From the IMG/VR virus record IMGVR_UViG_2534682331_000010: a stretch of DNA of 28,052 bases; one strand, written 5' to 3'. Shown one piece after another: positions 3,001-6,000 of the stretch (position 1 is its first letter; each line of letters begins with the position of its first letter). The stretch comes from a virus. Taxonomy: Duplodnaviria; Heunggongvirae; Uroviricota; Caudoviricetes. Position numbers: made by a program.

Positions 3001-6000
3001 CTACTGTCTGAAAATATAGAACCAACAGCGGTAAACATATCACTTGAGCCTTCAATAATTGCACAAGATGATGTTGAAGAGTTAGATGAAAAATACCCAC
3101 CAATCACCGTTGCTTGTTTACTGTCCTTTACTCTTAGAGCAGGACCAGTAGCAAGATCTGACATAACGTCAATCAACCATGTCCAATCCACCCCATCAAT
3201 ATCTATTGCTGATAGACCAGCGTCTTCGTAACCGCATGAATAAAATAAGTCACCATGCAACTTAAGCCCCTCTGTAATTGTTGAGACATCTTTTTTTTCA
3301 CATCTAGCATAAAACCCGGAATAACAATCTGAGTATGTATTCATAAGCATTCTTGAGTTTATTTGCCCGCCTTCAAATCTTATGCCCCAACTGCTAGCTG
3401 CAAACCTGTTATGTCTAATATCAAGCTCAGCTGCAGAATACCCTGATGGTGAATATATGCATGCGTTTAAAAAAGAAAATGAACACTCTTCTATCGTAAT
3501 AAGAGCACTCTTAATTAGAAAGCCAACACAATTACTTCCACTCTTTCCATATTTTGATGTAATGTTTAACCCATAAAATCGACTAAACTCAGAACCTTTT
3601 AATAAAATAAAGCAAGCATCTCCGTTTTTTAATTGCGCAATTACACTAAGTTTTTTAGAATCTCCATAAATACAAACCACGCTGTCTATTTCAATATTAG
3701 AAATGTAATACGGTAGGTTATTTCCTGGAACATAAATTTTTTTTGTTTTAGAGCTATCACTCTTAATGGCTTGTATGGCCGAATTAAATGCAGCGCTACA
3801 ATCAGTTCCAGGGATGGCTCCAAAATCAGTTATGCTAATAATCTCTTCATTTTTATCATGTTGTGTAGTGGTTATAGATCCGTCATGCGGCTGCTTTACG
3901 AAAACAACGTGATCATTAACAAGACCTGTTAATGTATCTGATTGTAGTTCACGTTTCAGCATATCAGGGTCATACTTCAGCACATTCGGAAAATAGAACT
4001 GCTGCGAACCGTACGCATCATAAACAGCCATAGAATGGCCTTGCACAGTTACGAACTTGGCAATCTGTCCGTTATATACGGGGTAACCTGCAGCGTTAAT
4101 GATGATTGGTTGCGATACAGGAACGTGAGAGCCGTCTTCGTTCTCTACATAAACCTGAATCTGGTTTTCAGAATTTACCGGGTCAGTGTCAATTTTACCG
4201 ATATAAATTTTGCCATTGGCTACGGCTTTAAAAGAACGAGCCATAGTGAAGAGTTGCGAAGGCATACTCACTACAACATTGGCTGTAATGTCTGTCATTT
4301 AATTTGCTCCAGATACAAGGAATGGCCGCAGCATGGCTACGGTGAGTTTTTTGTGATAAAACAACTTTTTCGGAAGTTATTTTGTTCGCTTTTCGACCTA
4401 CACTTTTTGTGTAGGTCTCTCCTTCAAGCTCATTGCCTAAGCGTGGCTACGGTGAATTTTGGGCATAAAAAAACCCAGCCGAAGCTGGGTCGTTGCGTTG
4501 GTTATCTGTCAGTAGTTATGTACTGAAGGAGGTAATTCTTTATTCTTAAGTCTCATCCATGCGGAAAGATTCGTTGGTCCGTCTGGCTCATTAATATCAA
4601 CATCTCGTGTGTGGTTTATTAAAACGTCTCTCGCCATTCCGATAACATACGAGAACTCATGACCGTAGTCGTAGCATCTGCCGGAATAGTTCGATTGAAT
4701 TTGTTTTAGCGCCGGATACAGTTCGCGGAATAATGCCTGTGAGCGGTTGGCATAATCCCATAACCATACAAGGCTGTTTGCTTCTTTTGCAGAAAGCTCG
4801 TTGGTTTTCTTCTCTTGTTTGCCAATGAACTCACCTTCAAGTGGAACTCGAGCTGCAAGTGACAGTGCTTCGGTAAACTGCTCCTCACTGATTTCTTTGT
4901 ACGAACATCCAAAATGGGATTTCAGTGACGACCACATGGTGATCATCGCCTTAGCCTGTTTTTCTTTTGGCAGAGACTGACCGCGACTCATGACAAGTTG
5001 TTTAATGGCTTCCTGCTGTTCAGTGGTGATTTTACCCGGCAACGCCTTTTTAGCTTTGCGTGGGTTAACTACATGGCCTTTAGTCCAGTACTCGTAGAGA
5101 ACATCGTCACACTCTTCCTGATACTGGATTACCTTGTCGCGGATTTCATGGCGGACTTTGTTAGGACTGATGGTTTGCAGCCAGCCAGCAAGTTTACGAA
5201 GTGCCAAACAAATAATCTCACGGCACTGTTCATCACCAGGAAGCTGCATTGTGATTTTCACAATGGAGGTTTTAAACCGTTACTTTATTTTCGTAAACTG
5301 TGAAGCCCAATCCATACCCATGCCTTCAACGATAGGTTTCATTGGGGTGTACGGCTCACCGTTGTGATTGACAACATAAAGCTCTGCGCCGTGGAATGGT
5401 ACATTGATAGTAGATACTGCTGTTGCTATACTTTTCATGTCGTTAATTCCTATGCGTGGTTTTACGATACCGAAGCCCTGACTGTTACCGCAGTTGGGGC
5501 TTCAACGTTTTGATTTCTTTGCCGCATCAAGCATCACTTCTGAAAACGTGCGCTTGCCACTGAATACTCTTTCTCTTCTCAATTTTTCGTTCGTGCCAAA
5601 TGATTCGCCATGAACAAAATTTGGTCTTAAAATGGTAATCGCAATCTCTTTGACTACTGCATCCAAGCGAATCACACCGTTATCCCCTCTCTCTTCAGGC
5701 TGTCTATCAGGCGCTTGATAACCTCTGAGTTAAACGACCTGCACTCTTCCTTTGCCCTGCTACCGATAGCATCCTTTAACGACTGCGGCATCCTTACCAA
5801 AATCTTACTTATTTCGTTCTCCATGTTACCCTCCACACAAACAACTCTTTTCGAATACAAAAGATAGCAAAGTGAGTATATCTAGTCAAAATTTTTTTGC
5901 ATACACTTTGATATCAAATTGAATACCAAAGGTGTGATATGGCAAAGGGTGTGTCAATTTCTCCAACTACGGTAAGAATCCCTGAATCTTTACGCGAGGC

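What the first reader, a model, noticed from the sequence alone, without database searches (positions are those of the whole stretch)
5404..5520. Predicted sar-like antisense RNA over the ant start
A near-consensus promoter (TTGATA, 17 bp, TATACT) sits antisense inside the first codons of ant, and about 70 nt downstream on the same strand there is a hairpin plus T-tract. This matches the P22 sar RNA architecture. It would be a second layer of control on an ant that is already interrupted.
Basis: inference. Interest (0 to 1): 0.5.

Follow-up and report, generated by a model that had tools for sequence, protein, structure and literature searches.

The report
P22-type sar antisense RNA gene
This is an ordinary, intact copy of the well-known phage P22 "sar" antisense RNA gene, which blocks translation of the antirepressor Ant; it sits in a P22-like prophage whose ant gene is already broken by a stop codon.

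Summary
The observation and the interpretation both hold. Rfam's sar model (RF00262) matches window 5440-5507 (+) over its full length at 81.8 bits (threshold 43, E 6e-16). The promoter TTGATA-17-TGcTATACT (5404-5432) aligns base for base with the annotated Psar of phage P22, at the same distance from the ant ATG (5438-5436, minus strand). That places the transcript start at G5439. The RNA folds into two hairpins. SL1 (5439-5468) carries the anti-Shine-Dalgarno UUCCU in its apical part. SL2 (5472-5503) has a stem identical to P22's sar terminator stem and is followed by AACGUUUU. The surroundings are a standard immI region: mnt-like gene, Pant-like promoter, arc, an extra 57-codon ORF, ant, then the tailspike gene. 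The ant gene is interrupted by one in-frame ochre codon (codon 53, 5280-5282), where intact relatives have Gln. The most likely mechanism, inferred from P22, is that sar pairs with the ant ribosome-binding site and blocks Ant translation, including on late-operon read-through transcripts. In this genome that control is probably redundant. The family is known and the same allele occurs in phage CUS-3 and many E. coli prophages, so novelty is low. Side observation: SL2 and the Psar -10 element form an invariant joint between freely swapped flanking modules.

The parts
5404..5409 (+). Psar -35 hexamer TTGATA
   Evidence: Promoter scan, 10 of 12 with a 17-bp spacer. It matches the consensus better than P22's own Psar -35, which the same scan does not call.
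5424..5432 (+). Psar extended -10, TGcTATACT. It is the reverse complement of ant codons 3-5 (AGT ATA GCA = Ser-Ile-Ala).
   Evidence: Identical to P22's annotated Psar -10 and at the same spacing from the ant ATG. TTGCTA(T/C/A)(A/G)CT is kept in all alleles seen.
5439..5508 (+). Predicted sar RNA, about 70 nt. The 5' end (G5439) is set by homology to P22's annotation. The 3' end is uncertain and lies between 5507 and 5511.
   Evidence: Rfam RF00262 at 5440-5507, 81.8 bits against a gathering score of 43, E 5.9e-16. The P22 sar misc_RNA is 70 nt and starts at the base next to the ant ATG. MFE -29.8 kcal/mol, z -4.8.
5439..5468 (+). Stem-loop 1: outer helix G.U, U-A, C-G, G-C, U-A, bulged U, A-U, A-U. 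Its apical part carries the anti-Shine-Dalgarno UUCCU (5447-5451).
   Evidence: Folds. Other sar alleles keep the helix through compensatory changes.
5472..5503 (+). Stem-loop 2, the terminator hairpin: 14 bp and a 4-nt loop. Identical to P22's.
   Evidence: Alignment. Single copy in the window. More than 120 viral contigs match this hairpin with one loop position left free.
5504..5520 (+). Tail after the hairpin, AACGTTTTGATTTCTTT. The U-tract is 5508-5511. The same bases encode the last codons (K-S-K-R) of orf57 on the other strand.
   Evidence: Sequence and ORF list. P22 has AACTTTA at this position and its RNA is annotated to end inside it.
5436..5451 (-). The target: ant start codon (5438-5436) and Shine-Dalgarno AGGAA (5451-5447) on the ant mRNA.
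   Evidence: Sequence. ORF 5280-5438 hits P22_AR_N and the anti-repressor Ant PHROGs.
4509..5438 (-). ant gene, 309 codons, interrupted by an in-frame ochre TAA at codon 53 (5282-5280). Intact relatives have Gln there (CAG in PA45B).
   Evidence: Translation and comparison with PA45B, CUS-3 and P22 Ant. The P22_AR_N domain is split across the stop and P22_AR_C is intact.
5502..5675 (-). orf57, an extra small gene between arc and ant. Its stop codon TGA (5504-5502) lies in the last bases of SL2.
   Evidence: ORF list. phrog_17642 at E 8e-43, function unknown. No Pfam or NCBIfam hit. Annotated as a hypothetical protein in E. coli PA45B and in phage phiv205-1.
5672..5824 (-). arc-like repressor gene (50 codons)
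   Evidence: Pfam Arc PF03869, E 6e-12.
5861..5889 (-). Pant-like promoter TTGACT-17-TATCTT with TG
   Evidence: Promoter scan. Same relative position as P22's Pant.
5939..6187 (+). mnt-like ribbon-helix-helix repressor gene, divergent from arc
   Evidence: Pfam Arc at E 1e-10 and phrog_2685 at E 1e-31.
4472..4491 (-). Terminator-like hairpin after ant, identical in sequence to the hairpin found at P22's annotated ant terminator
   Evidence: Terminator scans of the window and of P22. P22 annotation.

Best explanation
Window 5404-5511 (+) is the sar gene of a P22-like (Lederbergvirus) temperate phage of E. coli.

How it most likely works: a sigma-70 promoter of the extended -10 type lies inside the first codons of ant. 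It fires away from ant and starts at G5439, the base next to the ant ATG. It makes a roughly 70-nt untranslated RNA that ends at the SL2 hairpin and its U-tract. The RNA is exactly complementary to the ant 5' leader. Its SL1 apical part presents UUCCU opposite the ant Shine-Dalgarno AGGAA. Pairing sequesters the ribosome-binding site and blocks Ant synthesis. This covers ant copies carried on late-operon transcripts that read through the immI region on the way to the tailspike gene, and that Arc and Mnt, which act on Pant, would not repress.

Shown here: family membership, promoter and terminator homology, fold, target complementarity and gene context. Inferred from P22: that the RNA is transcribed and that it represses translation. 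In this genome ant carries an ochre codon at position 53, so the control is probably redundant. The sar gene is intact simply because the ant mutation looks recent.
For: - Rfam RF00262 matches over its full length at 81.8 bits against a gathering score of 43, E 5.9e-16. P22 itself scores 97.8 and 13 other relatives score 45-88.
- The P22 record annotates the sar promoter, a 70-nt RNA and a terminator at the positions that align with window 5404-5432, 5439-5508 and 5472-5508.
- The -10 element TGcTATACT is identical to P22's. The -35 TTGATA is better than P22's.
- The two-hairpin fold has an MFE of -29.8 kcal/mol, z -4.8.
- Across 11 representative sar sequences, the sar strand folds 1.6-14 kcal/mol better than its complement (9-14 kcal/mol in ten, 1.6 in TL-2011b), because of G.U pairs. 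This points to the plus strand as the structured RNA.
- The SL1 outer helix is kept in five main sequence-divergent alleles. G-C, A-U and U-A exchange at pairs 1, 4 and 5, and an anti-SD motif always sits in the apical part.
- The context is immI: mnt, Pant, arc, ant and the tailspike gene.
[quoted passage not shown] It is detected by small-RNA sequencing during P22 infection (PMC13397905). arc and ant are also transcribed from the late promoter (PMC12111858).
Against: - There is no expression data for this sequence.
- The U-tract is short, offset by 4 nt and interrupted, and the simple terminator scan does not call it. The same scan also misses P22's annotated terminator.
- ant is truncated at codon 53, so in this genome no phenotype may depend on sar.
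- SL2 shows almost no variation in the set I collected, because I selected that set by SL2 sequence. Covariation support for SL2 therefore rests only on TL-2011b and SPN3UB.
Confidence: 0.9

Rival explanations
1. Vestigial element. The sar sequence is intact, but this prophage no longer needs it because ant is a pseudogene. The RNA may be made, but it regulates nothing and will decay with time.
For: ant has an in-frame TAA at codon 53 that splits the P22_AR_N domain. Among roughly 110 sar-bearing loci, only this window and L040 have such early stops, so the lesion looks recent and sar has had no time to decay.
Against: This does not dispute what the element is, only whether it matters here. 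The ochre codon could be a sequencing error or be suppressed. sar might also affect the stability of the arc-orf57 or late transcript. None of this was tested.
Confidence: 0.5
2. sar has a second role here beyond the ant ribosome-binding site. Its 3' end overlaps the stop codon and last codons of orf57. The sar-mRNA duplex could direct cleavage, for example by RNase III, that sets the 3' end of arc-orf57 messages or processes late transcripts ahead of the tailspike gene.
For: The orf57 stop codon (5504-5502) lies inside SL2 and its last four codons form the U-tract. The immI region lies between the late genes and the tailspike gene on the same strand. The SL2 sequence is invariant while both flanks are swapped.
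Against: There is no direct evidence. In P22 the overlap with arc is also only a few bases. SL2's invariance is partly an artefact of how I collected the loci, and it can be explained by its role as a terminator and a recombination joint.
Confidence: 0.1
3. No antisense RNA is made. The hairpin works only on the sense strand, in the ant or late mRNA, as a stability or processing element or merely as a recombination boundary sequence. The promoter match is fortuitous.
For: The CUS-3 GenBank record labels the stretch a 'boundary sequence' and annotates no sar. A promoter-like match on its own is not above chance.
Against: The -10 element is conserved with P22's annotated Psar at identical spacing. 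The sense strand folds 9-14 kcal/mol worse in ten of the eleven sequences folded. The P22 RNA is documented in the literature. The Rfam score is far above threshold.
Confidence: 0.03

Closest known systems
sar RNA of Salmonella phage P22 (Rfam RF00262; Liao et al. 1987, Wu et al. 1987, Schaefer & McClure 1997, as cited in PMC2629481)
   Same: - Position: antisense across the ant ribosome-binding site, with the start next to the ant ATG.
- Promoter inside the ant codons, with an identical TGcTATACT.
- About 70 nt and two hairpins.
- SL2 identical.
- immI context of mnt, arc, ant and the tailspike gene.
   Different: - The SL1 and ant-leader sequence is a different allele, only about half identical, with a bulged U and UUCCU in place of CUCC as the anti-SD.
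- The -35 hexamer TTGATA is nearer to consensus.
- The gene ending at the terminator is orf57 rather than arc, so the Pant operon has three genes.
- The tail after SL2 is AACGUUUU rather than AACUUUA.
- ant carries an ochre codon.
The same sar allele in E. coli phage CUS-3 and in E. coli prophages such as strain PA45B (not annotated as sar in those records)
   Same: Promoter, SL1 and the SL2 stem are identical to the window. Only the SL2 loop base and the bases after the hairpin differ. 231 of 5,426 complete E. coli genomes carry a match to window 5404-5520.
   Different: ant is intact in those relatives: 309 codons in PA45B and 307 in CUS-3. In CUS-3 the sequence after SL2 differs and the record annotates no gene between ant and mnt.
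Other phage and plasmid cis-antisense RNAs that mask a ribosome-binding site (lambda OOP, IS10 RNA-OUT, plasmid ctRNAs)
   Same: Small, constitutively promoted, hairpin-rich and fully complementary to the target leader. The window gives a weak sub-threshold hit to ctRNA_pGA1: 29 bits against a gathering score of 45.
   Different: No sequence homology. The ctRNA hit falls below threshold and reflects only a GC-rich hairpin plus a U-tail.

Membership tests
sar RNA (Rfam RF00262) | Scores at or above the family's gathering threshold with the covariance model, over its full length | tested here: met
   81.8 bits against 43, model positions 1-68 of 68, E 5.9e-16, at 5440-5507 (+). P22 as the positive control scores 97.8 bits.
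sar RNA (Rfam RF00262) | Encoded antisense to the ant translation-initiation region, between the upstream gene of the Pant operon and ant | tested here: met
   The ant ATG is at 5438-5436 (-) and the SD AGGAA at 5451-5447 (-). sar covers 5439 to about 5508 (+). The upstream gene orf57 ends at 5502.
sar RNA (Rfam RF00262) | Promoter Psar inside the first codons of ant, firing away from ant, with the start adjacent to the ATG | tested here: met
   TTGATA-17-TGcTATACT at 5404-5432. The -10 element and its 3-nt distance from the CAT are identical to P22's annotated Psar. That the promoter is active was not tested.
sar RNA (Rfam RF00262) | Two stem-loops: SL1 with the anti-Shine-Dalgarno in its apical part, and a GC-rich SL2 | tested here: met
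   MFE structure at -29.8 kcal/mol, z -4.8. The same architecture appears in all 11 representative sequences folded, with compensatory changes in SL1.
sar RNA (Rfam RF00262) | Intrinsic termination after SL2, giving a 68-70-nt RNA | tested here: inconclusive
   The hairpin is identical to P22's annotated terminator and is followed by AACGUUUU. The simple terminator scan calls neither this one nor P22's. The true 3' end needs RNA mapping.
sar RNA (Rfam RF00262) | The RNA is made in infected or lysogenic cells and represses Ant synthesis | not testable with these tools
   Documented for P22 and UAB_Phi20 in the literature only (PMC13397905, PMC12111858, PMC7968456).
P22 immunity I (immI) region | Divergent mnt and arc-ant units with ribbon-helix-helix repressors, and an Ant with the P22_AR_C domain, embedded in the late operon upstream of the tailspike gene | tested here: met
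   Pfam Arc hits on the 5675-5824 (-) and 5939-6184 (+) products, P22_AR_N and P22_AR_C on ant, and Head_binding on the tailspike protein 2475-4298 (-). Deviations: the extra orf57, and the ochre codon in ant.
ctRNA_pGA1 (Rfam RF00236) | Scores at or above the gathering threshold | tested here: not met
   29.1 bits against 45. Rejected.

The most novel reading that the evidence does not exclude
The sar gene behaves as a portable regulatory cassette whose two ends are fixed recombination joints.

One joint is SL2. Its stem is invariant in more than 120 viral contigs, which were collected by searching for that hairpin. At least 10 unrelated sequences follow it, that is, different upstream genes.

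The other joint is the Psar -10 element. It fixes the first five Ant codons as M-x-S-[I/L/V]-A in front of three different N-terminal domains: P22_AR_N, Bro-N and KilA-N.

Between the joints, SL1 and the ant leader occur as discrete co-adapted alleles. If this is real, the antisense RNA gene, rather than any protein gene, is the conserved anchor that lets antirepressor and repressor modules reassort while staying under sar control.
Probability: 0.45. Interest if true: 0.35.

Novelty: already known. Interest (0 to 1): 0.15.

Why it matters
It adds little for discovery. sar has been a textbook cis-antisense regulator since 1987, it has an Rfam model, and this allele is already present in published phage genomes (CUS-3) and in about 4% of complete E. 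coli genomes.

There is a practical point. Among the E. coli-phage and RefSeq E. coli prophage records whose annotation was examined here, none labels the RNA. Annotators should therefore add it, and should not mistake the short ant N-terminal ORF and the hairpin for anything new.

For this genome, it shows that the immI regulatory circuit is intact except for a single nonsense mutation in ant. That is useful when judging whether the prophage is inducible or can be anti-repressed.

Tried and rejected
1. A scan of GTDB species-representative genomes for the SL2 pattern found nothing. This reflects the choice of representative genomes rather than rarity, because 231 of 5,426 complete E. coli genomes and more than 120 IMG/VR contigs carry it.
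2. I built a covariance model (R1) with the wrong SL1 register, pairing i with 31-i. Its hits are valid, but the helix-1 pair counts (23% paired) are meaningless and should be ignored.
3. SL1 registers differ by allele: 29-i in P22, 30-i in Kapi1, and 31-i with a bulged U in the window. MAFFT alignments A2 and A5 are also out of structural register for the window's allele. I therefore compared each allele's own fold. With only about five independent alleles this is qualitative, not a statistical test.
4. SL2 covariation cannot be assessed in the IMG/VR set because the set was selected by SL2 sequence.
5. The simple terminator scan is negative at SL2. I did not count this as evidence against, because it is also negative on P22's annotated sar terminator.
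6. The ctRNA_pGA1 hit is below threshold.
7. There is no second copy or trans target of SL1 or SL2 in the window.
8. The structural paper on sar (PMC1369469) is not held. Details of the pairing pathway are therefore not cited.
9. orf57 has no Pfam or NCBIfam match.

Full report
**What is in the sequence**

The plus strand of window 5404-5520 reads TTGATA (5404-5409), a 17-bp spacer that ends in TGC, and TATACT (5427-5432). Next come TTT, then CAT (5436-5438), which is the reverse complement of an ATG, and then G5439. The promoter scan reports this as a 10-of-12 match with a TG extended -10.

In the first 20 kb of the window, both strands, only two sites reach 10 of 12. Only two have the TG motif: this one and a minus-strand site at 5889-5861. 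Promoter-like matches as such are not enriched (3 found against 3.2 expected), so the promoter on its own proves nothing.

Downstream, 5472-5503 is a perfect 14-bp hairpin with a 4-nt loop. It is followed by AACGTTTTGATTTCTTT.

**Identification**

Rfam's covariance model for sar RNA (RF00262) matches 5440-5507 on the plus strand over all 68 model positions. The score is 81.8 bits against a gathering score of 43, with E 5.9e-16. It is the only Rfam family that reaches threshold anywhere in the window. The only other hit in the region with an E-value below 1 is ctRNA_pGA1, at 29 bits against 45, and I reject it.

P22 itself, run as a control, scores 97.8 bits. Thirteen other phage or prophage loci score 45-88 bits.

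The P22 reference record annotates four features around its ant start. These are a sar promoter, a 70-nt sar RNA that starts at the base next to the ant ATG, a sar terminator, and arc, which ends two bases inside the RNA's 3' end. In the alignment, the window's TGCTATACT, the 3-nt gap to CAT, the G start and the whole SL2 are identical to P22.

By homology the transcript therefore starts at G5439 and ends near 5508.

**Structure**

The 73-nt stretch 5439-5511 folds into two hairpins at -29.8 kcal/mol. Shuffled sequences average -15.8 kcal/mol, giving z = -4.8, and none of 200 shuffles folds as well.

SL1 (5439-5468) has an outer helix of seven pairs with one bulged U. Its apical part carries UUCCU (5447-5451), opposite the ant Shine-Dalgarno AGGAA.

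I collected more than 120 IMG/VR contigs by searching for the SL2 hairpin with one loop position left free. They contain 54 distinct local variants. With the GenBank phages examined, SL1 falls into five main sequence-divergent alleles:
- the P22 type;
- the Kapi1 type;
- the window/CUS-3 type;
- the L014 type;
- the SPN3UB type.

Each allele folds into the same architecture. Pairs 1, 4 and 5 of the outer helix exchange among G-C, A-U and U-A. An anti-SD motif (CUCC, UCCU or CCUC) always lies in the apical part.

Across the 11 representative sequences folded, the sar strand is more stable than its complement by 1.6-14 kcal/mol. The margin is 9-14 kcal/mol in ten of them and 1.6 in TL-2011b. The asymmetry comes from G.U pairs that become C.A mismatches on the ant strand, so the structured RNA is the plus-strand one.

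This comparison is qualitative, because only about five independent alleles exist. My attempt at a formal pair count failed because I gave the model the wrong SL1 register.

**Context**

On the minus strand, in order:
- a Pant-like promoter (5889-5861);
- an Arc-family gene (5824-5672; Pfam Arc, E 6e-12);
- a 57-codon ORF (5675-5502; phrog_17642, function unknown);
- ant (5438-4509);
- a terminator-like hairpin identical in sequence to the one at P22's annotated ant terminator (4491-4472);
- the tailspike gene (4298-2475; Head_binding domain).

An Mnt-like ribbon-helix-helix gene diverges from arc at 5939-6187.

This is the immI region, also called the 'ant moron', of P22-like phages as described in PMC2629481. 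The window as a whole is a Lederbergvirus-type genome. Its closest relatives are E. coli phages phiv205-1, CUS-3 and Kapi1, at 95-96% identity over about half of the query.

**The interrupted ant**

The two ant ORFs, 5438-5280 and 5261-4509, are in the same frame. A single TAA at codon 53 (5282-5280) separates them, where PA45B has CAG and CUS-3 also has Gln. The rest of the 309-codon gene is 96% identical to PA45B's intact ant. The stop splits the P22_AR_N domain.

Among roughly 110 sar-bearing loci whose ant could be read, only this window and L040 have such early stops. The lesion therefore looks recent, and this explains why sar next to it is untouched.

**Mechanism**

This part is inferred from P22. 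[quoted passage not shown] It has been detected by small-RNA sequencing during P22 infection (PMC13397905).

arc and ant are also transcribed from the late promoter (PMC12111858). That fits the geometry here, where late genes, immI and the tailspike gene all lie on the minus strand.

I conclude that sar here is made from Psar, pairs with the ant leader and blocks Ant translation. It would act in particular on read-through late transcripts, which Arc and Mnt cannot control because they act on Pant. With ant truncated, this control is probably redundant in this genome.

**Differences from P22**

- The SL1 allele differs.
- The -35 hexamer is nearer to consensus. The same scan does not call P22's own Psar at all.
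- The Pant operon has a third gene, orf57. Its stop codon lies in the last bases of SL2 and its last four codons (K-S-K-R) encode the U-tract.
- The tail after SL2 is AACGUUUU rather than AACUUUA.

The simple terminator scan misses both hairpins. The exact 3' end remains to be mapped.

**Novelty**

The family is known and the window's allele is already in public records. Promoter, SL1 and SL2 stem are identical in CUS-3 and in many E. coli prophages. In total, 231 of 5,426 complete E. coli genomes match 5404-5520.

Among the records whose annotation was examined here, the E. coli-phage and E. coli-prophage records do not label it as sar. So this is an annotation gap rather than a discovery.

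**Side observation**

SL2 and the Psar -10 element look like fixed joints between swapped modules.

At least 10 different sequences follow SL2. They belong to different upstream genes, including P22 arc, orf57, other ribbon-helix-helix genes and an unrelated longer ORF in L032.

On the other side, three different Ant N-terminal domains are fused to the same P22_AR_C domain. They are P22_AR_N, Bro-N and KilA-N, and they all begin M-x-S-[I/L/V]-A. In the commonest alleles, codons 3-5 (AGT ATA GCA) are the reverse complement of TGCTATACT.

CUS-3's depositors already marked the stretch as a 'boundary sequence', so the general idea is not new.

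Noticed in passing
window 5280-5282 (minus strand; ant codon 53): A single in-frame ochre codon (TAA) where intact relatives have Gln (CAG in PA45B). 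It splits the P22_AR_N domain. The rest of ant is 96% identical to an intact 309-codon homologue.
   Followed up: yes
window 5502-5675 (minus strand): orf57 is a 57-codon basic ORF inserted between arc and ant. It overlaps the arc stop (GTGA), and its own stop codon sits inside the sar terminator stem. It matches phrog_17642 (unknown function) with no Pfam or NCBIfam hit. It is annotated as a hypothetical protein in E. coli PA45B (WP_000620145.1) and in phage phiv205-1. P22 has no gene here.
   Followed up: partly
window 5472-5503; loci L001-L126: The sar SL2 hairpin is invariant in more than 120 IMG/VR contigs, apart from one loop base. The set was selected by that sequence. The DNA right after it falls into at least 10 unrelated types, and the DNA before it into 4-5 SL1 alleles, in many combinations. 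It looks like a mosaic recombination joint.
   Followed up: partly
window 5424-5438; L004, L032, L001: Ant proteins with three different N-terminal domains (P22_AR_N, Bro-N, KilA-N) and a shared P22_AR_C domain all start M-x-S-[I/L/V]-A. The likely reason is that codons 3-5 are the reverse complement of the Psar extended -10 (TGCTATACT in the commonest alleles).
   Followed up: partly
window 5863-5930: Operator-like symmetry lies between the Pant-like promoter and the mnt start. There is an 18-nt imperfect palindrome centred at 5912/5913 with the perfect core TTTGATATCAAA. There is also a 12-nt inverted repeat, GATAGCAAAGTG / CACTTTGATATC, at 5863-5874 and 5904-5915. These are candidate Arc or Mnt operators. 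They differ in sequence from P22's.
   Followed up: no
window 1-1152 and 1595-2365 (plus strand): A tyrosine integrase gene starts at base 1. Next to it, an Acyl_transf_3 ORF matches only profile positions 113-325. It may be an N-terminally truncated O-antigen acetyltransferase, or have a mis-called start.
   Followed up: no
window 6184-8129: The rest of the 'ant moron' holds several ORFs. These are a 69-codon ORF (phrog_16466, unknown), a P63C-domain ORF on the minus strand (6597-7658), and a 154-codon ORF with no family match (7665-8129). In PA45B a ClpP-like protease gene follows mnt instead.
   Followed up: no
L040 (IMGVR_UViG_3300045988_091342): This is a second sar-bearing locus whose ant ends early, after 41 codons, at a different place from the window's lesion. 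It is an independent loss of ant with sar intact.
   Followed up: no
L127 (phage TL-2011b) 1051-1118: A divergent sar (44.8 bits, just above threshold). The inner SL2 stem and the loop are replaced, with compensatory changes such as U-A to G-C. It is the best covariation evidence for SL2 outside the invariant set.
   Followed up: partly
E. coli RefSeq records (e.g. NZ_CP021288.1 2560536-2560652); CUS-3, Kapi1, phiv205-1 records: None of the E. coli-phage or E. coli RefSeq records whose annotation was examined labels sar, although Rfam detects it easily in the five of these loci that were scanned. 231 of 5,426 complete E. coli genomes carry a match.
   Followed up: partly
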